The translations under genes and the position numbers were made by a program. Shown here piece after piece: positions 34,792-52,401 of a DNA stretch of 64,000 nt. Every line of letters begins with the position of its first letter. Position 1 is the first letter of the stretch. This DNA comes from an uncultured virus (IMG/VR IMGVR_UViG_3300031758_000011) (Duplodnaviria; Heunggongvirae; Uroviricota; Caudoviricetes). Where the stretch lies: the IMG/VR virus record IMGVR_UViG_3300031758_000011, positions 62,001 through 126,000 of that record. One strand, 5' to 3'. Under the pieces are notes generated by a model, which had not been told where the DNA came from, searched no databases, and saw only the letters and a program-made list of their open reading frames with translations.

Positions 34792-35509
34792 TATGAATTT
34801 AACTAATGAATTTAGAGATTATGCTATTAAGCATATGGGTGTTTCATCTTTAGAGTTTCACCAATGGGAACAAATGCAAGAAAAGCTTTATGGTTCTCAA
34901 GCGTCATTAATGGTGCCATCAGCATCATTAACGCCTTACATTCTTGAAGAAAGAGAATTAAGAGCAACACAAATGGATATCTTTTCAAGAATGATGATGG
35001 ATAGAATCATTTGGTTAGCTGGCCCAGTTAACGACAGAATGAGCACAGTTGTACAAGCACAACTTATGTTTTTGGATAACTTAGAAACAAAAGATATTAC
35101 TTTACATGTCGATTCTCCAGGTGGTTCAGTAAAATCTGGTTTATCAATCGTTGACGTAATGGATTATATCACATCTGATTGCGTAACAATTAACACTGGT
35201 ATGGCTGCAAGTATGGGAAGTATCTTATTGGGTGCTGGCACAAAAGGTAAACGTTATACATTACGTTTCAGTAGAGTAATGCTACACCAAGTTTCGACTG
35301 GAGCTCAAGGTAACATCCAAGACATTAGACGTTCAATTGCTGAAGGTGAAAAGTATAATGACATTTTATTTGGTTTGTTAGGTCAATATACTGATAAAGA
35401 CCCAAAACAAGTAATGGAAGATGCAAGTCGTGATTTATGGTTAAATGCTGATGAAGCTTTAGCTTATGGAATCGTTGATAACATTATTACAGCTAAAAAG
35501 AAAAAATAA
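34784..35509 (+). CDS. clpP: ATP-dependent Clp protease proteolytic subunit
   Basis: DIFSR, SPGGSV, GMAASMG (catalytic Ser), MLHQ, RDLWL.A.EAL.YG. Confidence 0.96.
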   Translation: MNNMNLTNEFRDYAIKHMGVSSLEFHQWEQMQEKLYGSQASLMVPSASLTPYILEERELRATQMDIFSRMMMDRIIWLAGPVNDRMSTVVQAQLMFLDNLETKDITLHVDSPGGSVKSGLSIVDVMDYITSDCVTINTGMAASMGSILLGAGTKGKRYTLRFSRVMLHQVSTGAQGNIQDIRRSIAEGEKYNDILFGLLGQYTDKDPKQVMEDASRDLWLNADEALAYGIVDNIITAKKKK

Positions 35510-35612
35510 TTGCAAAATTACTTGCATTATTTAAAAAATGTTTGTACATTTGTAATAAGAAAATAAATAAGTGGGTTTTTTAACAGAAACCCACATATTT
35601 ATAAAACACATT

Positions 35613-41136: not shown

Positions 41137-41207
41137 GGTCTTATGATGTAACGGCAGCGTAACGGTCTCTAAAACCGATAGTGAGGGTTCGATTCCCTCT
41201 AAGACCA
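41137..41207 (+). tRNA. Amber suppressor tRNA (anticodon CTA)
   Basis: GGTCTTA/TAAGACC-A acceptor, CGGT-CTCTAAA-ACCG anticodon arm (CTA at 41169-41171), GAGGG-TTCGATT-CCCTC; own TACATTTG promoter at 41116. Confidence 0.9.
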
Positions 41208-41259
41208 CAAATAATGTTTACTTTGGCATTATTATTGATATATTTATTAAAAAAAAGTT

Positions 41260-42687: not shown

Positions 42688-43818
42688 ATGGAAAAGAGAA
42701 TTATATTTGATATGCCAATACCAAAAGACATTTTACAAATAAAAGATGTTTTTAAGCAAAATGGTTTTAACCTATATGTTGTAGGTGGTGCAGTGCGTGA
42801 TGCGTTGTTAGGTAAAACACCTAAAGATTACGATTTGGCAACCGATGCTATCCCAGACCAAGTGGAAGACATAATGGCTAAAGGTGGTTTTAGAACTTTA
42901 CCAACTGGTAAAGCATTTGGTGTTATCAACGTCTTTACTGATATGGGTGAATACGAAATCGCAACTTTTAGGGAAGACTTATCTAGCGGTAGAAGACCAG
43001 ATGGTGTTAGTTTTACAGATATAGTAGGTGACGTTAAAAGACGTGACTTAACAATCAACGCATTATTTTACGATATAGACACGTCAGAAGTTGTTGATTT
43101 GGTTGATGGTATAGAAGACCTTAAAAACAGTGTTGTAAGGACTGTAGGTGCAGCTGAAGATAGATTTGGTGAAGATAGATTACGTATATTAAGAGCAATT
43201 AGATTTGCTGGTAGATTTGGTAGTGAATTAGACCCATCAGTTGACGCTGCATTGCAAAAAGATGCTAGTTTGGAAGGTATATCTGGTGAAAGAATCAGAG
43301 ATGAGTTTTTGAAAGGTATCAAATCAGCAAAATCTGTAAAATCGTTTTTAAAAATGATTGACAAATACAATTTATTTGATTGGGTTTTTAAAGATGTTAA
43401 TGTTAATAAAAATTTCATTGAAGATAATGATATAATTATTGTTTTAGCAATGTTGTTAAAGAATAATAAAGTTGATTTATTAACAAAACAATTGAACAAA
43501 TTAAAATACTCAATTGATGAAATAAGAGCTATTACATTTTTGATTAGTCTATTGAATTTGTCGATTGATACAGCTGTAACGCTTAAAAAAGCTGAAAAGA
43601 CATCTGGTGTAACAGCAGAACAAATAACTAGATTTGCTCAATTAAGTGGTATTGATGTAAAGATTATAGATACATTTTTATTATTTAAATTAACGGTTAA
43701 TGGTTCAGACCTAATGACAAAGATGGGGTTAAAACAAGGACCAGAATTAGGTAAAGAAATACAAAGACTAGAAACTGATAATTTTAAAAAACTTTATCTA
43801 GATATATTTATTTTTTGA
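42688..43818 (+). CDS. cca: tRNA nucleotidyltransferase (CCA-adding enzyme, class II)
   Basis: VGGAVRD, KDYDLAT, EIATFR, RRDLTINA, EDRLRILRAIRF; the window's tRNA genes lack encoded CCA. Confidence 0.88.
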   Translation: MEKRIIFDMPIPKDILQIKDVFKQNGFNLYVVGGAVRDALLGKTPKDYDLATDAIPDQVEDIMAKGGFRTLPTGKAFGVINVFTDMGEYEIATFREDLSSGRRPDGVSFTDIVGDVKRRDLTINALFYDIDTSEVVDLVDGIEDLKNSVVRTVGAAEDRFGEDRLRILRAIRFAGRFGSELDPSVDAALQKDASLEGISGERIRDEFLKGIKSAKSVKSFLKMIDKYNLFDWVFKDVNVNKNFIEDNDIIIVLAMLLKNNKVDLLTKQLNKLKYSIDEIRAITFLISLLNLSIDTAVTLKKAEKTSGVTAEQITRFAQLSGIDVKIIDTFLLFKLTVNGSDLMTKMGLKQGPELGKEIQRLETDNFKKLYLDIFIF

Positions 43819-45665: not shown

Positions 45666-45775
45666 GAAAAAATTAAAAAAATAATTACAAAAACACTTGA
45701 CAAATAGAAAAAAAGTTTGTACATTTGTAGTATAAATTTAAACTTTTTAGAAAAAACGATATATTTAATATAAAA

Positions 45776-45871
45776 ATGAGAACAATTAACATACATATGA
45801 TTTCGATTAATAATTGGAGACGCAATAGTTTCCATAACGGTCAAGGTATGTTAAATAACATCATAGAATAG
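45776..45871 (+). CDS. Leader peptide MRTINIHMISINNWRRNSFHNGQGMLNNIIE (31 aa)
   Basis: Between the promoter (45720) and a terminator; contains the antiterminator segment GGTCAAGG. Confidence 0.75.
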   Translation: MRTINIHMISINNWRRNSFHNGQGMLNNIIE

Positions 45872-45929
45872 TAAAACATTTTATGAAGTAATCAACAAAA
45901 AGCCTTGACCACAAATCAAGGCTTTTTTT
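45839..45929 (+). promoter_or_regulatory. Transcription attenuator (terminator/antiterminator pair)
   Basis: Terminator AAAAAGCCTTGA-CCACAAA-TCAAGGCTTTTTTT (45897-45929); GGTCAAGG (45839-45846) is the exact complement of CCTTGACC (45903-45910). Confidence 0.75.
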
Positions 45930-45941
45930 ATGCTTATAACT

Positions 45942-46133
45942 ATGGAAGAATTAGTAAGACCACTCGGAAAAGTAAAAGTAAAAAAGTTTAACGAAAACTT
46001 TGATGAAATAGTTGACGAGTATAAAGAAAAAGCAAAACAAATGGGTTACAACGGTGACCTAAGATTTAAAAAAGAAAACGGTAACATAATAATATTTGTT
46101 ACAATAGACGGTGGCGTTAGCTCAGTTGGTTAG
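45942..46133 (+). CDS. Small hypothetical protein
   Basis: ORF track; its 3' end runs into the tRNA-His half gene. Confidence 0.5.
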   Translation: MEELVRPLGKVKVKKFNENFDEIVDEYKEKAKQMGYNGDLRFKKENGNIIIFVTIDGGVSSVG

Positions 46134-46144
46134 AGTGCTAGATT
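46110..46144 (+). pseudogene. 5' half of a tRNA-His gene truncated at the anticodon
   Basis: GGTGGCGTTAGCTCAGTTGGTTAGAGTGCTAGATT stops just before the expected GTG. Confidence 0.75.
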
Positions 46145-46201
46145 TTTAAAGTGATATTTACTTTTTGAACTATTATTCTATATTTATATAAAAACATAAA
46201 T

Positions 46202-46780
46202 ATGGAAAAAATAGAATTAGAAAAACTTCTTAAAGAAGGTTTATCTTTAAGACAAATAAGTAAAAAAACTAATAAATCATTAACGACTATAAGATATTGG
46301 GCAGATAAATATGGTCTTAAACCTAAAAAATATTATCATAAATGGAGTTTTGAAGAATTAAAACCTTTAATAGAATCTTCAAATTCTAAAGCTGAAGTGT
46401 TAGAAAAAATGGGTTTAACACTAAAAGCTGGTAATTATAGAACGTTAAAAAGGTATTTTGATTTATATGGAATAGATAATGATTTATATAAAGGTAACCC
46501 TAGAAGAAACGTTACTAAGGTAAAATATAGTGATTCTGAAATATTTTGTGAAAATTCACAATATAATTCTGGTCATTTAAAGAATAGAGTGTTAAGAAGT
46601 AATTTATTAGAGTATAAATGTGTAAGTTGTGGTAATACTGGTGAATGGATGGGTGGTAAACTAATATTACAAATAGACCATATTAACGGTATAAATAATG
46701 ATAATAGAATAGAAAATTTACGTTTTTTATGTCCTAATTGTCATTCACAAACTGAAACATACGCTGGTAAGAATAAATAA
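46202..46780 (+). CDS. HNH endonuclease with N-terminal HTH
   Basis: CVSCG...LQIDHING...DNRIENLRFLCPNCH. Confidence 0.9.
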   Translation: MEKIELEKLLKEGLSLRQISKKTNKSLTTIRYWADKYGLKPKKYYHKWSFEELKPLIESSNSKAEVLEKMGLTLKAGNYRTLKRYFDLYGIDNDLYKGNPRRNVTKVKYSDSEIFCENSQYNSGHLKNRVLRSNLLEYKCVSCGNTGEWMGGKLILQIDHINGINNDNRIENLRFLCPNCHSQTETYAGKNK

Positions 46781-46782
46781 AT

Positions 46783-46855
46783 GGTGGTTATGGTGTAACG
46801 GTTAACATGATAGATTGTGATTCTATTGATACCAGTTCGATTCTGGTTAATCACC
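46783..46855 (+). tRNA. tRNA-His(GTG)
   Basis: G-1, C73, ATAGA-TTGTGAT-TCTAT. Confidence 0.9.
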
Positions 46856-46895
46856 CTTGAACTGTAAGTTCTTTGACATGTTGGTAAATTAATAC

Positions 46896-46966
46896 ACAAG
46901 TATAGTTCAGTGGTAGAATAGCGGTCTCCAAAACCGTTGACGGGAGTTCGAGTCTCTCTACTTGTG
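46896..46966 (+). tRNA. tRNA-Trp(CCA)
   Basis: Cloverleaf; GCGGT-CTCCAAA-ACCGT. Confidence 0.92.
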
Positions 46967-46998
46967 CAATTAACTGAATATTAGTTAATTATAAATAC

Positions 46999-47085
46999 GG
47001 AGAGGTAAGCAGAGTTGGCCTAACTGCAACCGCCTTGAAAGCGGTAGGCCCTAGAGGTGTGTGGGTTCGAGTCCCACCCTCTCCG
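46999..47085 (+). tRNA. tRNA-Ser(TGA)
   Basis: ACCGC-CTTGAAA-GCGGT, long variable arm, G73. Confidence 0.92.
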
Positions 47086-47155
47086 CTAAAATTTAATTTT
47101 ATGAAAAAAGAATTTGATATGTTGTAAGGTCTGCTATTCACAGACTCACAACATT

Positions 47156-47344
47156 ATGAGTAAAAACGTAAACAGAGCAAAACTGAACAAAGCACAAAAT
47201 GGTAGACAATACCGAATCATGTTAATCAATGATTTCTACCCAATTTATTGGGATGAAGGTATTCGTTTCTATGGAAACAAAATGAGTTATCAAGTTAGAA
47301 TGTATAAAACTTGGAAACACTACCGAAAAACACAGTGGAAGTAA
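47156..47344 (+). CDS. Small basic protein within the tRNA array
   Basis: Start refined; ends YKTWKHYRKTQWK. Confidence 0.6.
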   Translation: MSKNVNRAKLNKAQNGRQYRIMLINDFYPIYWDEGIRFYGNKMSYQVRMYKTWKHYRKTQWK

Positions 47345-47355
47345 TTCCACAATTT

Positions 47356-47427
47356 TGTCTAATGGTGAAATGGTTATCACGCTGCTCTGATACGGCAGTA
47401 TTTCCAGTTCGAGTCTGGGTTAGACAA
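47356..47427 (+). tRNA. tRNA-Ile(GAT)
   Basis: Cloverleaf; CTGCT-CTGATAC-GGCAG. Confidence 0.85.
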
Positions 47428-47433
47428 CAAGAT

Positions 47434-47510
47434 GCAGATGTATCCCCTCAAGCTTATATCTTGTAGAAAGGGTAGTTGGTCACATGTGAGTTCGAATCTC
47501 ACCTTCTGTA
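47434..47510 (+). tRNA. Non-canonical tRNA-like gene, anticodon TAT (Ile)
   Basis: Acceptor and T-arm present; CAAG-CTTATAT-CTTG hairpin; no D-arm at the normal place. Confidence 0.55.
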
Positions 47511-47520
47511 CAAAATATAT

Positions 47521-47594
47521 TCTCCTTTAGCTCAGTAGGTTAGAGCAACGCACTGTTAATGCGTGGGTCCTAGGTTCGAATCCTAGAGGGAGAG
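47521..47594 (+). tRNA. tRNA-Asn(GTT)
   Basis: Cloverleaf; ACGCA-CTGTTAA-TGCGT. Confidence 0.93.
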
Positions 47595-47604
47595 CAACAA
47601 ATAT

Positions 47605-47706
47605 TCACCCATAGCTCAGTGGTAGAGCAAACGGCTAGGTATGATAAGTAAGTTCATACAAGGAGTGTTAACCGTTAGGTCCTAGGTTCGAATCCTAGTG
47701 GGTGAG
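47605..47706 (+). tRNA. tRNA-Asn(GTT) with 30-nt insertion in the anticodon loop
   Basis: AACGG-CT-[47637..47666]-GTTAA-CCGTT; all other arms perfect. Confidence 0.8.
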
Positions 47707-47712
47707 CAAAAT

Positions 47713-47782
47713 GCCGACACTTAGTGGAAAAGGACCGTCCCTCATATGGATGGTTAAGTGAGTTCGAACCTCACAGTCGGTA
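47713..47782 (+). tRNA. Atypical tRNA(CAT), probably Ile2 (or Met)
   Basis: CGTCC-CTCATAT-GGATG, normal T-arm, shortened D region. Confidence 0.65.
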
Positions 47783-47788
47783 CAACAT

Positions 47789-47861
47789 GCACTTATCGTT
47801 CAACTGGATAGGACAATCGCCTACGAAGCGATAAATCGGAGTTCGAATCTCTGTAGGTGTA
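47789..47861 (+). tRNA. tRNA-Arg(ACG)
   Basis: Cloverleaf; ATCGC-CTACGAA-GCGAT. Confidence 0.93.
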
Positions 47862-47870
47862 CAACAATCT

Positions 47871-47943
47871 GCCCCTATCGTTCAACTGGATAGGACATGG
47901 CCCTTCTAAGGCCAGTATCGGAGTTCGAATCTCTGTGGGGGTA
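47871..47943 (+). tRNA. tRNA-Arg(TCT)
   Basis: Cloverleaf; TGGCC-CTTCTAA-GGCCA. Confidence 0.93.
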
Positions 47944-47949
47944 CAAAAT

Positions 47950-48034
47950 GGAGAGTAATCCTTGATGGCGATAGGGTCCGACTGCTAATCGTGACGTACC
48001 TTTTTGGTATGAGGTTCGATTCCTCTGCTCTCCG
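47950..48034 (+). tRNA. tRNA-Ser(GCT)
   Basis: CGA-CTGCTAA-TCG, long variable arm, G73. Confidence 0.85.
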
Positions 48035-48090: not shown

Positions 48091-49026
48091 ATGAAAACAA
48101 TACTATTTTTAATCCTATTTTTACCAACATTGTTATTATCACAAACAACTTTGGTTGATGAAGATTTTTCTCCACCAACAACTTCTGGTTGGTCATCAAC
48201 ACCATCTGGGTGGATGTTAAACAACTATGGTTCTGGTAATGCATTATCTGGCACATGGGCGTTAAGATTAACTAGTTGGTCAGCTAGTTCACCAAAATAT
48301 GTTTATTTTCCAGTTACAGTACAATCAAATAAAAATTATATTATAACATTTTGGACAAAAAGGGTTTGTAGTTTAACAGTTAACGTCAACGAAACAGCCA
48401 ATCAAACAACATTAATTCAAAGTTATTCATCAACAAATCCAGATTGTTCGTCAAATTGGACAAATTGGTATCAATGGACTGATGTTTATTCATCAAACTA
48501 TGATGGAACTGTATATTTTCAAATATTGGTTAATTCAACTTACTTTTCGACTACTTTATATATTGAGGACGTTAAAATTGTTGAAATGGACCCAACGCCA
48601 TTACCAATAGAATTGATATATTTTAAAGGTAAAAATGTTAACGACTATAATCTTTTATTTTGGTCAACAGCGACTGAAATAAATAATGATTATTTCACGA
48701 TTGAAAAAAGTTATGATGGTTATAATTTTCATGTTATTGACAATATTGAAGGTGCTGGCTATTCAACACATCAATTGTATTATGAGTATCATGATTATAA
48801 TTTACAACCATTTATAACATACTATCGTTTAAAACAAACTGATTACGATGGTAAAAAAGACGTTAGTGATATAATATCAATAGATAATAGAAATGATAAA
48901 GGTGATAAAGCAAAACTAGTCAATATAATTAACATATTAGGGCAAACAGTTAACGCTGATTATAATGGATTAATAATTTACCGTTATAGTGATGGTAGCG
49001 TTATGAAAGTAAATAACCAACATTAA
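48091..49026 (+). CDS. Secreted Bacteroidota-type protein (signal peptide, beta-sandwich/CBM-like domain, 'PLPIEL' Ig-like module)
   Basis: Signal peptide; PLPIELIYFKG..W.TATE.NN.YF.IEKS.DG..F, YYRLKQTDYDG, NILGQ. Confidence 0.75.
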   Translation: MKTILFLILFLPTLLLSQTTLVDEDFSPPTTSGWSSTPSGWMLNNYGSGNALSGTWALRLTSWSASSPKYVYFPVTVQSNKNYIITFWTKRVCSLTVNVNETANQTTLIQSYSSTNPDCSSNWTNWYQWTDVYSSNYDGTVYFQILVNSTYFSTTLYIEDVKIVEMDPTPLPIELIYFKGKNVNDYNLLFWSTATEINNDYFTIEKSYDGYNFHVIDNIEGAGYSTHQLYYEYHDYNLQPFITYYRLKQTDYDGKKDVSDIISIDNRNDKGDKAKLVNIINILGQTVNADYNGLIIYRYSDGSVMKVNNQH

Positions 49027-49082: not shown

Positions 49083-49979
49083 ATGAAAAAAAATGTTTTA
49101 AATATCGAAATAACTAGACCATCACAAAAATTGTTTGTGATGCGTGGTATTCCTGGGGCTGGAAAATCAACAATGGCGAAATCACTAATGGGTGAAGGGA
49201 TAATTCATTCAACAGATGATTTAATTGAAGCTACTGGTGACTACAGAGGTTTCTTTGCTAAAATGATAGAGTCTGGAGACTTTAAAGATTTGTCTAGAAT
49301 GCACTCTAAGAACTTATCTAACGCAATCAAATCTATGAAAGATGGTATTAGTCCAGTTGTAATAGATAACACGAATATCAAAGCCAATGAGGCTAAAGCA
49401 TATGTTGTTGCAGCGTTGGAAATGGGATTTGATGATAACAACATACAAATACATGATGTTGGCACTCGTAACTTGACTGCTGAGCAATTAGCTGAGTCAA
49501 ATACACATGGAGTTCCATTAGATAAAATAAAAATGATGATGGATTCACATAAATCTGTTGGGCCATTGACTGTTAAAAAAATAGTTGAATCTAAAGATAT
49601 GTATAAACAATCAGATGTGTTATATTCTTGTGTTTTGTTGGATGGACAATCCAAAGGTACGTTATTGGATAAACTTGGTATATGGATACCAAAAGATTGG
49701 ACTGTGATAACACATCATATGACAATAAATTTGGGTGAACTTAAAGATAAAACTGATTTAGGTAAAGAAGTTACATTGACAGTTGAAGCGTTAGGTCTTT
49801 CAGATAAAGCTATGGCTGTAAGAGTTAGCGGTTATCCATCAAAAAATGAAATTCCACATATAACTATTGCGATTAACCCAGATGGTGGTAAACCAGTTAT
49901 GAGCAATCAAATAACAAAATGGCAAGACATTAAATCATTTATGATAAGTGGTATTGTCACTGAAATAAAAAAACAATGA
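49083..49979 (+). CDS. P-loop polynucleotide kinase fused to a 2H phosphodiesterase (RNA end-healing)
   Basis: GIPGAGKST, IDNTN, HGVP; 2H motifs HMTI and HITI. Confidence 0.8.
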   Translation: MKKNVLNIEITRPSQKLFVMRGIPGAGKSTMAKSLMGEGIIHSTDDLIEATGDYRGFFAKMIESGDFKDLSRMHSKNLSNAIKSMKDGISPVVIDNTNIKANEAKAYVVAALEMGFDDNNIQIHDVGTRNLTAEQLAESNTHGVPLDKIKMMMDSHKSVGPLTVKKIVESKDMYKQSDVLYSCVLLDGQSKGTLLDKLGIWIPKDWTVITHHMTINLGELKDKTDLGKEVTLTVEALGLSDKAMAVRVSGYPSKNEIPHITIAINPDGGKPVMSNQITKWQDIKSFMISGIVTEIKKQ

Positions 49980-51276: not shown

Positions 51277-52401
51277 ATGTTAGCTATACAAAAATATTTA
51301 AGAACACACGGTTTAGAAAAAACAATCAAAGACTTTTCTTTAAAAACTAGAGAGTATGAACACAAAATACTCTTGAAGTATGACCAATTAGTGTCACCAA
51401 CACTTATGTCATTGCCAGAGATGCAAGATTGTCGTGGAATCATCCTTGAAAAAGGTACTTGGAACGTAATGTCTTTGGCGTTTAGAAAATTCTTCAACTC
51501 TGAAGAAGGTAACGCTGCTAAAATAGATTGGAATACTGCACAAGTACTTGAAAAATTGGATGGTACTATGATACAAGTGTATTATGATTGGCACGACATG
51601 ACATGGTATGCTGGTACTACTGGTACTGCAAACGGTGAAGGTGAAGTTAACAACAAAAATGGTACTAAATTTAACGAATTGTTTTGGGATACTGTTAACA
51701 ACAAATACACATTCAATGCATGTTTGTTAAATTATGATTATATCTATGTGTTTGAGTTAACTACACCATATAACATAGTAGTAAAACCACATGGTGAATC
51801 ATCAGCGACTTTGTTGGCTGTTAGAAACAGAAAAACACTTGTTGAGTTGTCTGGGAGAGACTTGGAAATGACTGCGGTATCATTGGATATACCATTGGTA
51901 AAATCTTTTGATTTAAACGCAAAAAATGTTGGTCACTTGTTGAAAACATTTGAAGGTATGCCATGGTCTGAAGAAGGTTATGTTGTACGTGATGGTAATG
52001 ACAATCGTGTTAAAGTGAAAAATCCAGCATATGTTGCGGTACACCACTTGAAAGGTAAAACTGCTGAACACAACATATTAACTATTGTAAAAACTAACGA
52101 GATAGAAGAATTTGCTGCTACTTTCCCAGAAAGAACAGAAGAATTAAATCGTCTTAAAGAGTCTTACGATGCGTTGGTTGCAAAATTGAATGTTGTATGG
52201 GATGAATTAAAGTTGCGTAAACCAAAAAACGTAACAAAACCAGAACAAAAAAAGTTTGCTGCTGCTGTGTTTGAAGTTTGTGAGAAATATGATTTAAAAA
52301 ACTTTACTGGGTTGTATTTTGGGTTGAAAGATTACAAAATAGCATCAGTTGAAGAATATATGTTTAACTATGACGATAAAACGTTATATAAAATGTTGTA
52401 A
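51277..52401 (+). CDS. RNA ligase 1 family (T4 RnlA-like)
   Basis: CRGII, KFFN, EKLDGT, FEL, EGYVV, VKVK. Confidence 0.9.
   Translation: MLAIQKYLRTHGLEKTIKDFSLKTREYEHKILLKYDQLVSPTLMSLPEMQDCRGIILEKGTWNVMSLAFRKFFNSEEGNAAKIDWNTAQVLEKLDGTMIQVYYDWHDMTWYAGTTGTANGEGEVNNKNGTKFNELFWDTVNNKYTFNACLLNYDYIYVFELTTPYNIVVKPHGESSATLLAVRNRKTLVELSGRDLEMTAVSLDIPLVKSFDLNAKNVGHLLKTFEGMPWSEEGYVVRDGNDNRVKVKNPAYVAVHHLKGKTAEHNILTIVKTNEIEEFAATFPERTEELNRLKESYDALVAKLNVVWDELKLRKPKNVTKPEQKKFAAAVFEVCEKYDLKNFTGLYFGLKDYKIASVEEYMFNYDDKTLYKML

What the first reader, a model, noticed from the sequence alone, without database searches (positions are those of the whole stretch)
45720..48034. Leader-peptide attenuator whose codons match the tRNA operon it precedes
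Seen: promoter box TACATTTG (45720), an unannotated 31-codon ORF (45776-45871), a strong terminator (45897-45929), then the tRNA array. GGTCAAGG in the leader (codons 22-24) is the exact complement of CCTTGACC in the terminator's 5' arm, so the two hairpins exclude each other. Of codons 2-21, 17 of 20 encode His, Trp, Ser, Ile, Asn or Arg, exactly the six amino acids served by the array. The match extends to isoacceptors: AGA/Arg-TCT, CGC/Arg-ACG, TCG/Ser-TGA, AGT/Ser-GCT, ATT/Ile-GAT, ATA/Ile-TAT or CAT. Established: trp/his-type attenuators use ribosome stalling in a leader to select an antiterminator. Inference: the phage senses loss of any of these host tRNAs (for example by anticodon-nuclease defences or starvation) and turns on its replacement set. 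I know of no described multi-input attenuator for a phage tRNA operon.
Basis: partly seen in the sequence, partly recalled or inferred. Interest (0 to 1): 0.95.

Follow-up and report, generated by a model that had tools for sequence, protein, structure and literature searches.

The report
Codon-matched attenuator before phage tRNA genes
A tiny translated "test gene", written in the codons that the downstream phage tRNAs read and wired to a switchable transcription stop, most likely lets this lake jumbo phage make a tRNA set only when ribosomes run short of it, a control known for amino-acid genes that I did not find published for tRNA genes.

Summary
The promoter box, 31-codon ORF (45776-45871), GGTCAAGG/CCTTGACC pair and terminator are all there.

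- **Conservation.** The ORF, terminator and tRNA array recur in more than 50 jumbo-phage contigs.
- **Codon rule.** Codons 4-18 use only His, Trp, Ser, Ile, Asn, Arg or Met in 597 of 600 cells. The rule ends at codon 19, where the antiterminator segment begins.
- **Codon match in the window.** In the window 15 of 15 such codons have a cognate tRNA, and all 10 anticodons are represented.
- **Antiterminator.** The pairing covaries, with 10 of 10 pairs changed on both sides. On an unfitted alignment 89% of cells pair, and 0 of 500 shuffles reach that value.
- **Other clusters.** In complete relatives, three further tRNA clusters have their own leaders built from their own amino acids (Thr/Tyr/Gln/Lys/Pro/Gly; Leu/Val/Cys; Phe/Asp/Ala/Glu). 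The four sets together cover all 20 amino acids.

Best reading: a trp-type ribosome-mediated attenuator that gates tRNA genes (confidence 0.8). The trigger is untested. Seven literature searches found no description. This scan has noted similar elements on other DNA.

The parts
45697..45727 (+). Promoter: TTGACA (45697-45702), 17-nt spacer, and the TACATTTG box (45720-45727) of the Bacteroidota sigma-A type
   Evidence: The box is conserved in relatives. A 79% copy of 45680-45732 lies upstream of the tmRNA at window 35505-35557. TACATTTG occurs 14 times on the + strand of the window. Passages of PMC9723704 place the TAnnTTTG box at -12 to -5.
45731..45732 (+). Predicted transcription start
   Evidence: A box at -12 to -5 (PMC9723704) puts +1 at 45732. 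A 279-nt contig of a relative in an RNA library (X20) starts at 45731. This is a weak hint only.
45776..45871 (+). Leader ORF of 31 codons with a TAG stop, directly followed by TAA at 45872-45874
   Evidence: The ORF is conserved and open in 39 of 39 distinct relatives, with stops in both other frames in 39 of 39. The upstream region is A-rich like those of the phage's genes, which carry no Shine-Dalgarno signal.
45785..45829 (+). Regulatory codons 4-18: ATT AAC ATA CAT ATG ATT TCG ATT AAT AAT TGG AGA CGC AAT AGT
   Evidence: 15 of 15 codons have a cognate tRNA or tRNA-like gene in the array, and 10 of 10 anticodons are represented. The joint chance is about 2e-11. Family-wide, 597 of 600 cells fall in the set.
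45786..45809 (+). Region 1: the 5' strands of hairpin P1 (45786-45794 and 45798-45809)
   Evidence: MFE helices. 85.7% of cells pair in 39 sequences against 22-38% when the partner is slid, but no pair covaries.
45815..45834 (+). Inner hairpin UGGAGAC/GUUUCCA
   Evidence: It appears in the folds of relatives.
45835..45854 (+). Region 2: GGTCAAGG (45839-45846), complementary to the terminator's 5' arm, together with the 3' strands of P1 (45835-45843 and 45846-45854)
   Evidence: 2:3 duplex -16.0 kcal/mol. Covariation. Codons 19-23 differ almost only by nonsynonymous changes within two clades: 0 and 2 synonymous against 143 and 57 nonsynonymous.
45861..45886 (+). Small hairpin with the stop codon at the loop's edge
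   Evidence: Relatives carry a hairpin at the same place with different arms, by my reading of the folds.
45897..45929 (+). Intrinsic terminator: regions 3 and 4 (45897-45908 with 45916-45927) plus the T run
   Evidence: Terminator helix: 85.9% of cells paired, and 7 of 14 pairs changed on both sides.
45942..46133 (+). ORF-X, a conserved small protein of unknown family and the first gene after the terminator
   Evidence: 29 sequences. No significant Pfam or PHROG match. AF2 pLDDT 83.6, with no Foldseek match at E <= 0.001.
46202..46780 (+). HNH endonuclease gene inserted before tRNA-His, with a tRNA 5' fragment at about 46110-46145 just upstream
   Evidence: In relatives a tRNA-His follows ORF-X directly.
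46784..48034 (+). tRNA array: His-GTG, Trp-CCA, Ser-TGA, Ile-GAT, UAU-like, Asn-GTT, Asn with an insert in the anticodon loop, CAU-like, Arg-ACG, Arg-TCT, Ser-GCT

Best explanation
This is a ribosome-mediated (trp-type) transcription attenuator that gates a phage tRNA operon.

**Layout.** A host-type promoter starts an RNA at about 45732. Its first 200 nt hold a 31-codon ORF, three alternative pairings and an intrinsic terminator.

**Off state.** With no ribosome, or once a ribosome has run through unhindered, region 1 (within codons 4-12) pairs with region 2. Region 3 is then free to pair with region 4, and transcription stops at 45929.

**On state.** If the ribosome lingers on any of codons 4-18, it holds region 1. 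Region 2 (GGUCAAGG) pairs with region 3 (CCUUGACC) as soon as region 3 is made. The terminator cannot form, and RNA polymerase runs on into ORF-X and the tRNA genes.

**Logic.** Codons 4-18 are exactly the codons read by the operon's ten tRNA species. The switch is therefore an OR gate on shortage of any of them, and a negative feedback on the operon's own products.

**Shown:** the anatomy, conservation, codon rule, covariation of 2:3 and 3:4, and matching of leader to array across four operons.

**Inferred:** translation of the leader, the kinetic order of folding, the direction of the switch, and the natural trigger.
For: 1. **Coding.** The ATG and frame are kept in 39 of 39 distinct sequences, while frames +1 and +2 carry stops in 39 of 39. 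One-codon deletions keep the frame.

2. **Codon rule.**
 - 597 of 600 cells of codons 4-18 are H, W, S, I, N, R or M.
 - In the columns my search pattern did not fix, the figure is 317 of 320. Swaps such as M/I/R and N/M/S/I stay inside the set.
 - From codon 19 the composition becomes diverse.
 - Lys is absent from codons 4-18 although AAA is 75 per 1000 codons in phage genes.

3. **Same set, other order.** Leaders found without the pattern, through ORF-X, keep the set. Two lineages (L094/L154 and L144) keep it in a different order.

4. **Geometry.** In a footprint model of 39 sequences, 2:3 pairing is possible with the A site at codons 2-18 and abolished at 19-29. That is the same boundary as the codon rule.

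5. **Antiterminator.**
 - Own-pair duplexes average -13.7 kcal/mol against -9.1 for non-own pairs, and 0 of 20,000 permutations reach that.
 - Unfitted alignment A3 (25 sequences): 89.0% of cells paired against 20-54% when slid, 4 of 10 pairs changed on both sides, 0 of 500 shuffles.
 - Model-fitted A4 (53 rows): 10 of 10 pairs changed on both sides, and 73 such cells against 19.6 expected.

6. **Switch energetics in the window.** Before region 4 exists, the 2:3 state is at -31.8 and the P1 state at -26.0 kcal/mol. In the full transcript the terminator state is at -40.1 and the 2:3 state at -34.4.

7. **Link to tRNAs.** Among ORF-X loci with at least 2 kb downstream, 39 of 42 with a leader have 3 or more tRNAs, against 2 of 8 without one. 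In metagenome loci the figures are 22 of 23 against 1 of 13, by my count. Some records are shared between the two sets.

8. **Four operons.** In complete relatives, units B, C and D have their own leaders with 9-11 of 11 residues from their own cluster's amino acids and at most 6 from another's. Their terminators end 9-19 nt before the first tRNA in 7 of 9 cases.

9. **Promoters.** No other + strand promoter box lies between 45728 and 49041.

10. **RNA libraries.** Contigs from two studies bridge the terminator. This is weak evidence.
Against: - No experiment exists. Translation, stalling and read-through are all inferred.
- Hairpin P1 (1:2) shows no covariation: 0 of 15 pairs.
- At equilibrium, 2:3 forms even without a ribosome in the transcript cut before region 4 (median 8 pairs). 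The off state therefore needs a kinetic trap.
- The stop codon lies about 23-28 nt past region 2. A ribosome at the stop does not cover region 2, unlike in trpL.
- The C-terminal third of the peptide is more conserved than a pure sensor needs. About 40-50% of codon differences there are synonymous.
- L082 lacks the ATG and the first codons but keeps the rest.
- The contigs of L039, L048 and L062 have the leader but no tRNA within 3.4 kb.
- Sporadic extra tRNAs (Tyr, Thr, Pro, Lys, Phe, Gln) are not mirrored in leader A.
- With default ARAGORN calls, only 390 of 495 leader codons find a cognate in their own array, against 143 of 469 for codons 19 to the end.
- For units C and D the 2:3 complementarity is short (4-7 bp) and not specific in a cross matrix.
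Confidence: 0.8

Rival explanations
1. The switch is translation-dependent but not codon-specific. Any ribosome on the leader opens hairpin P1 and allows read-through, so the element reports general translation activity or transcription-translation coupling rather than the supply of particular tRNAs.
For: Region 2 is exposed again once the A site is at codon 30 or later, and 2:3 is the equilibrium fold before region 4 exists. P1 has no covariation.
Against: It does not explain why codons 4-18 are confined to the array's amino acids in 597 of 600 cells, with swaps staying inside the set. It does not explain why four operons have four different matching leaders, or why the rule stops at codon 18.
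Confidence: 0.07
2. The ORF encodes a functional micropeptide with its own promoter and terminator. It could also be a dual-function leader such as peTrpL. The tRNAs are then expressed by leakage or by other means.
For: C-terminal motifs (DIIE[WF], GGTEV, SFFDD[FILY]) are kept with synonymous changes. Dual-function leader peptides are known (abstracts of PMC7968998 and PMC7298713 in the listings).
Against: Inside codons 4-18, chemically unlike residues replace each other (M/R, I/N/H, N/M/S). Two lineages carry the same set in a different order. Region 2 evolves with the terminator, not with the peptide. The peptide matches no Pfam or PHROG family.
Confidence: 0.05
3. It is an RNA-only switch. 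A protein, a tRNA (as in T-boxes) or a small molecule binds the conserved leader RNA and selects terminator or antiterminator, and the ORF is incidental.
For: Many leader nucleotides are invariant and the RNA is strongly structured (z = -5.0). L082 keeps the RNA elements without the start codon.
Against: The frame is open in 39 of 39 sequences against stops in both other frames. Indels come in threes. The ATG is invariant. Paralogous leaders B-D change the codons but keep the ORF-plus-terminator layout. No Rfam family, T-box included, matches the leader.
Confidence: 0.05
4. It is a chance small ORF next to an ordinary terminator of the upstream gene.
For: The window is AT-rich, so Ile and Asn codons are common. 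Promoter-like sites are not enriched.
Against: Chance estimates are 1.2e-7 and about 2e-11. The element is conserved in more than 50 contigs, with covariation.
Confidence: 0.01

Closest known systems
Leader-peptide transcription attenuators of amino-acid operons (trpL, hisL, leuL, thrL, pheL, and the multivalent ilv and thr leaders)
   Same: A short translated leader rich in the sensed codons, with mutually exclusive 1:2, 2:3 and 3:4 pairings and an intrinsic terminator before the first gene. Multi-amino-acid input is known for the ilv and thr leaders (recalled). Passages of PMC9723704 report clues for such attenuators in a Flavobacterium.
   Different: The regulated genes are tRNAs, not biosynthetic enzymes. 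The inputs are 7 amino acids and 10 isoacceptors, used once to a few times each, rather than runs of one codon. The stop codon does not place the ribosome on region 2. The element is phage-borne and comes as four paralogous units that cover all 20 amino acids. No Rfam leader family matches.
pheST (pheM) leader attenuator of E. coli (recalled, not read here)
   Same: A leader-peptide attenuator that controls a gene of the translation apparatus according to the supply of charged tRNA.
   Different: It controls a synthetase, not tRNA genes, and has a single amino-acid input.
T-box riboswitches
   Same: They sense the tRNA supply and choose between terminator and antiterminator.
   Different: T-boxes bind uncharged tRNA directly, without translation. 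No T-box match was found, and here an ORF is conserved.
Phage-encoded tRNA arrays and tRNA repair as answers to tRNA-targeting defences or codon demand
   Same: A phage tRNA array sits next to a CCA-adding enzyme, a kinase/CPDase and an Rnl1-type ligase. The abstract of PMC12409363 (listing) states that some viruses encode tRNAs to counter tRNA-cleaving immunity.
   Different: Those accounts concern the tRNAs themselves. On-demand control by a codon-matched leader did not turn up in my searches.
Earlier notes of this scan on other genomes
   Same: Several AI notes describe codon-matched leader plus terminator elements before phage tRNA arrays, including a 'leader B' made of six amino acids in a lake phage.
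   Different: They concern other DNA: no look-alike of this window's leader was on record. They are mostly unchecked notes and are not independent evidence.

Membership tests
Ribosome-mediated (leader-peptide) transcription attenuator | A short ORF in the 5' leader with a usable start | tested here: met
   The ORF of 29-33 codons is open in 39 of 39 sequences while the other frames are closed. The ATG is invariant. The upstream region is A-rich like the phage's genes, which lack a Shine-Dalgarno signal.
Ribosome-mediated (leader-peptide) transcription attenuator | Regulatory codons for the amino acids or tRNAs relevant to the controlled genes | tested here: met
   597 of 600 cells fall in the set. 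In the window 15 of 15 codons are cognate and 10 of 10 anticodons are represented. Four leaders match four clusters.
Ribosome-mediated (leader-peptide) transcription attenuator | An intrinsic terminator between the leader and the first controlled gene | tested here: met
   (39 of 42 unique sequences; 2 of the other 3 were recovered by the model, and the third, L049, is cut by its contig end).
Ribosome-mediated (leader-peptide) transcription attenuator | An antiterminator that excludes the terminator, supported by covariation | tested here: met
Ribosome-mediated (leader-peptide) transcription attenuator | An anti-antiterminator (1:2) overlapped by the regulatory codons | tested here: inconclusive
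   It is conserved (85.7% of cells paired against 22-38% when slid), but 0 of 15 pairs covary.
Ribosome-mediated (leader-peptide) transcription attenuator | Read-through rises when ribosomes stall on the regulatory codons | not testable with these tools
   Only a footprint model and RNA-library contigs that bridge the terminator.
Rfam leader families (Trp_leader, His_leader, Leu_leader, Thr_leader) and T-box | A match to the family's covariance model | tested here: not met
   No match in 45680-45935 at E <= 1.

The most novel reading that the evidence does not exclude
The phage runs a decoding-capacity monitor for the whole genetic code. Four paralogous leader sensors split the 20 amino acids among them. 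Each switches on the matching replacement tRNA operon when any of its codons is read slowly. Together with the adjacent CCA-adding enzyme, kinase/CPDase and RNA ligase, this would be an inducible counter-measure against host tRNA loss, whether from anticodon nucleases, tRNA decay after shut-off, or the codon demand of an AT-rich genome.
Probability: 0.35. Interest if true: 0.95.

Novelty: new variant of a known kind. Interest (0 to 1): 0.9.

Why it matters
- tRNA genes are textbook examples of promoter-level (growth-rate and stringent) control. Here they would be governed by translation of a codon-matched leader, which is a direct feedback from decoding to tRNA synthesis.
- It would explain how large phages carry dozens of tRNAs without expressing them blindly. 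It would also give a sequence signature (leader composition equals array content) for finding such operons.
- The modular scaffold, with the same frame and swapped codons, is a natural multi-input sensor of aminoacyl-tRNA supply. It could serve as a reporter of tRNA-targeting defence or of codon-specific decoding speed.

Tried and rejected
- **Databases.** Rfam has no family for the leader. The GenBank phage collection holds no similar DNA.
- **RNAalifold** on the MAFFT alignment A1 predicted no pairs, not even the terminator, because of misregister. I therefore used per-sequence duplexes, named structures and a covariance model.
- **ORF-X.** No significant Pfam match (one weak sub-threshold row), no PHROG match and no Foldseek match at E <= 0.001. 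Its function is left open.
- **Host marker.** I expected a type-9 secretion tail in ORF 48091-49026, but Pfam gave nothing, so I dropped it.
- **Cellular genomes.** No ORF-X relative was found. Of 3 pattern hits, 2 are chance and 1 (L124) is a real copy on a 20.6 kb contig of a metagenome bin. This gives no host information.
- **RNA runs.**
  - The stretches without cover prove nothing.
  - Contigs cannot give transcript ends or levels.
- **tmRNA promoter copy.** The copy upstream of the tmRNA is followed by a hairpin and a 44-codon ORF with no similarity to the attenuator.
- **Extra tRNAs.** Sporadic extras (Tyr, Thr, Pro, Lys, Phe, Gln, Arg-CCT, Ser-GGA) show no matching leader codons.
- **Units without a match.** In G003, the small ORFs and hairpins before the Arg-CCT/Glu-CTC/Leu-CAG/Gly-CCC group (L181) and the Met group (L180) show no codon match.


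Full report
**Where the window lies.** It is bases 62001-126000 of a 126.5 kb virus record that CheckV rates 36% complete, at 30% G+C. The record has no near relative in the GenBank phage collection. DNA contigs of lake and other freshwater metagenomes from several studies hold it.

- The promoter box TACATTTG is at 45720-45727, with TTGACA 17 nt upstream.
- A 31-codon ORF runs from 45776 to 45871.
- GGTCAAGG starts at 45839 and CCTTGACC at 45903. Each occurs once in 64 kb.
- The terminator has 12 pairs, 45897-45908 with 45916-45927, followed by a T run.
- The stretch 45734-45935 folds at -40.1 kcal/mol, z = -5.0, and 0 of 200 shuffles fold as well.
- 17 of 20 codons at positions 2-21 encode His, Trp, Ser, Ile, Asn or Arg. 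These six make up 27.2% of the proteome, giving P = 1.2e-7. Only 2 of 252,928 20-codon windows in the record reach 17.

That stretch holds a conserved small gene (ORF-X, 45942-46133), a tRNA 5' fragment and an HNH endonuclease gene.

**The array**
- ARAGORN and Rfam call His-GTG, Trp-CCA, Ser-TGA, Ile-GAT, Asn-GTT, Arg-ACG and Arg-TCT. Rfam also calls a tRNA with a 30-35 nt insert in its anticodon loop, which ARAGORN (introns allowed) reads as a second Asn. ARAGORN calls Ser-GCT at a relaxed threshold.
- Two tRNA-like genes with UAU and CAU anticodon loops score 27.4 and 26.8 bits, against Rfam's cut-off of 29.
- Counting those two, all 15 codons at positions 4-18 have a cognate, and all 10 anticodons are represented.
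- Under the phage's codon usage, the chance is 3.8e-9 for the first property and about 2e-11 for both together.
- TCG (2.1 per 1000) and CGC (0.2 per 1000) are rare codons in this phage, yet the leader uses them.

**Relatives**
- A search with the upstream protein and a DNA pattern taken from the first alignment gave 56 copies, 44 of them unique, on jumbo-phage contigs of up to 368 kb.
- The frame from the conserved ATG is open for 29-33 codons in 39 of 39 distinct sequences. Frames +1 and +2 hold stops in 39 of 39.
- Codons 4-18 are H, W, S, I, N, R or M in 597 of 600 cells. In columns not fixed by my pattern the count is 317 of 320.
- Variable columns swap chemically unlike residues (M/I/R; I/N/M/H; N/M/S/I) without leaving the set.
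- From codon 19 on, Leu, Gln, Pro, Thr, Phe, Val, Glu, Gly and Ala appear.
- Because the pattern biases this sample, I searched again through ORF-X in viral contigs and metagenomes.
  - The leaders found that way keep the rule.
  - Two lineages, L094/L154 and the marine L144/L146, carry the same amino acids in a different order.

**The RNA switch**
- A terminator was found in 39 of 42 unique copies. The covariance model recovered 2 of the other 3. The third, L049, is cut by its contig end.
- In every copy a segment at about nt 62-71 of the ORF complements the terminator's 5' arm. The words differ between lineages:

| Leader word | Terminator 5' arm word |
|---|---|
| GGTCAAGG | CCTTGACC |
| TGAATCGG | CCGATTCA |
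| TGAGTCGG | CCGACTCA |
| AGAGTCGG | CCGACTCT |
| GTCGGGT | ACCCGAC |
| CTAGGTC | GACCTAG |
| GAATTCGG | CCGAATTC |
| GAGTCGAG | CTCGACTC |
| GAAGTGGG | CCCACTTC |

- Own-pair duplexes average -13.7 kcal/mol against -9.1 for non-own pairs, and 0 of 20,000 permutations reach that. Related sequences inflate this figure.
- On the unfitted MAFFT alignment A3 (25 sequences of two clades), 89.0% of cells pair, against 20-54% with the partner slid. 4 of 10 pairs change on both sides, and 0 of 500 shuffles reach the observed pairing or covariation score.
- The terminator helix itself gives 85.9%, with 7 of 14 pairs changed on both sides.
- On the model-fitted alignment A4 (53 rows, which leans towards the structure), 10 of 10 pairs change on both sides. 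73 cells do so against 19.6 expected.
- Within two clades, codons 19-23, which hold this segment, differ almost only by nonsynonymous changes: 0 and 2 synonymous against 143 and 57. The constraint there is on the RNA.
- The competing hairpin P1 (45786-45809 with 45835-45854, enclosing 45815-45834) is conserved, at 85.7% paired against 22-38% when slid. It shows no covariation, because its 5' strand hardly varies.

**Energetics and geometry**
- Before the 3' arm exists, the 2:3 state (-31.8 kcal/mol) beats the P1 state (-26.0). In the full transcript the terminator state (-40.1) beats the 2:3 state (-34.4). That is the profile of a kinetic switch.
- In a footprint model of 39 sequences, 2:3 can form with the A site at codons 2-18. 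It cannot at 19-29, and it can again from codon 30.
- The productive window therefore ends exactly where the codon rule ends.
- The same model shows two weak points. Without a ribosome 2:3 also forms at equilibrium, so P1 must act as a kinetic trap. And a ribosome at the stop codon does not cover region 2.

**What is controlled**
- A tRNA array of the same composition follows the leader in nearly all loci.
- Among ORF-X loci with at least 2 kb downstream, 39 of 42 with a leader have 3 or more tRNAs, 2 have 1-2, and 1 has none. Of 8 without a leader, 6 have none and 2 have 3 or more.
- In the metagenome set the counts are 22 of 23 against 1 of 13, by my count. Some records are shared with the viral set.
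- The leader therefore goes with the tRNAs, not with ORF-X.
- Exceptions:
  - The contigs of L039, L048 and L062 have the leader but no tRNA within 3.4 kb.
  - L082 has lost the ATG and the first codons.
- With default ARAGORN calls, 390 of 495 codons at positions 4-18 find a cognate in their own array. For codons 19 to the end the figure is 143 of 469. Arrays cut at 3.4 kb and odd tRNAs account for at least part of the misses.

**Does the leader co-vary with the array? Yes.**
- Complete relatives (368, 362 and 306 kb) hold 65, 45 and 40 tRNA matches in several clusters. Three further cluster types have their own promoter, small ORF and terminator:

| Unit | tRNAs in the cluster | Core of the leader (example from the calls) |
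|---|---|---|
| B | Gln, Lys, Pro, Gly, Tyr, Thr | TTTTTYQTQYQPKGGKP |
| C | Cys, Val, Leu isoacceptors | ILVLLSLCLLVV |
| D | Phe, Glu, Asp, Ala | FDFAFFAAEED |

- In a cross table of 12 leaders, each has 9-11 of 11 residues from its own cluster's set and at most 6 from any other set.
- The sets of units A, B, C and D have 7, 6, 3 and 4 amino acids, which adds up to all 20.
- In units B-D the terminator ends 9-19 nt before the first tRNA in 7 of 9 cases. No protein gene can be the target there.
- Unit B has a clear region 2 of 7 Watson-Crick pairs, with one compensating change between genomes (GCTGGGT/ACCCAGC against ACTGGGT/ACCCAGT). Units C and D have only 4-7 bp of complementarity, and it is not specific in a cross matrix.
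- Leaders A, C and D share their first codons, which suggests one scaffold recoded after duplication (inference).
- Within unit A, the L094/L154 leader lacks AGA and internal ATG codons. Its array, at a relaxed ARAGORN threshold, lacks Arg-TCT and CAT tRNAs and has Arg-TCG instead. That is one lineage only.

**Host and expression signals**
- The phage's genes have no G-rich Shine-Dalgarno signal (G <= 0.15 at -12 to -7). They have an A-rich stretch (0.62-0.68 at -13 to -10), as does the leader.
- Passages of PMC9723704 say that Flavobacterium sigma-A uses a TAnnTTTG box at -12 to -5. They also say that these bacteria lack Shine-Dalgarno sequences, and that clues for leader-peptide attenuation were seen upstream of amino-acid operons.
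- That puts the start at 45732. I infer a Bacteroidota host from this, and that is not proven.
- No other + strand box lies between 45728 and 49041.
- In an RNA library (X20), a 279-nt contig of a relative covers 45731-46007. In another (X16), a 187-nt contig identical to the window covers 45815-45978. Both bridge the terminator. DNA can be present in such libraries, so this is only a hint.

**Surroundings.** Nearby genes include a CCA-adding enzyme (42688-43815), a kinase plus cyclic-phosphodiesterase protein (49083-49976) and an Rnl1-type RNA ligase (51277-52398). A tmRNA, ClpP, DnaJ and an FKBP isomerase are also close by. The array thus sits in a tRNA-repair and translation-maintenance island. 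That fits a phage facing tRNA damage, though it does not show what triggers the switch.

**Verdict**
- The element works like a trp-type leader-peptide attenuator and meets four of the five sequence-level criteria I tested. The 1:2 hairpin is conserved but unproven by covariation, and the functional criterion cannot be tested here.
- It is not a member of any Rfam leader family.
- Unexplained features:
  - the conserved C-terminal motifs of the peptide;
  - the role of ORF-X;
  - the small hairpin at the stop codon.
- Seven searches of the paper library found no tRNA operon under leader-peptide control (passages in 93). Subscription journals are mostly not covered.
- This scan has noted like elements on other genomes, none of them a sequence look-alike of this one. 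I read those notes after my own analysis, and I do not count them as support.

Noticed in passing
window 42688-43815, 49083-49976, 51277-52398: A CCA-adding enzyme, a kinase plus tRNA-ligase-type cyclic phosphodiesterase protein and an Rnl1-type RNA ligase flank the array. These are the activities needed to repair cleaved tRNAs, or to splice them.
   Followed up: partly
window 47605-47706; also L007, L010, L011 and other loci: A tRNA (Rfam 58.4 bits) carries a 30-35 nt insert in its anticodon loop, too short for a group I intron. ARAGORN with introns allowed reads it as an Asn tRNA. Relatives have many tRNAs of 83-94 nt. With the kinase, CPDase and ligase nearby, this may point to phage tRNA processing by cut and re-ligation.
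   Followed up: no
window 47434-47510 and 47713-47782: Two tRNA-like genes fall just under Rfam's cut-off. One has a UAU loop and almost no D arm, and the other has a CAU loop.
   Followed up: partly
window 46110-46780: The 5' part of a tRNA is followed by an HNH endonuclease gene. In relatives a tRNA-His starts right at the end of ORF-X. This looks like a homing-endonuclease insertion into the array.
   Followed up: no
window 45942-46133: ORF-X is a conserved protein of about 56 residues (beta-alpha-alpha-beta-beta model, pLDDT 83.6) with no family and no fold match. It also occurs without a leader and without tRNAs in other phage contexts.
   Followed up: partly
window 45869-45874 and 41137-41208: The leader's TAG stop stands where relatives have TGG or TTC followed by TAA. 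The phage carries a tRNA with a CUA anticodon that has its own TACATTTG box 14 nt upstream. TAG may be read through at some stage.
   Followed up: no
window 35505-35557 and 14 + strand TACATTTG sites: A shared promoter type precedes the tmRNA, the CUA tRNA and the leader. Related promoters recur many times in the complete relatives.
   Followed up: partly
L021 (two matches 1560 nt apart): One contig carries two tandem units of leader A, ORF-X and tRNAs, with different terminator words.
   Followed up: no
leader codons 24 to the end (window 45845-45868): The C-terminal motifs of the leader peptide (DIIE[WF], GGTEV, SFFDD[FILY]) are kept with synonymous changes and all end in acidic plus hydrophobic residues. 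This is unexplained. They may tune release at the stop codon, or the peptide may have a second role.
   Followed up: partly
L180:1100-1385 (G003): About 280 nt of G+C-richer sequence that looks structured by eye (not folded here) lie between a promoter and the Met tRNAs of a complete relative. No ORF match was seen there.
   Followed up: no
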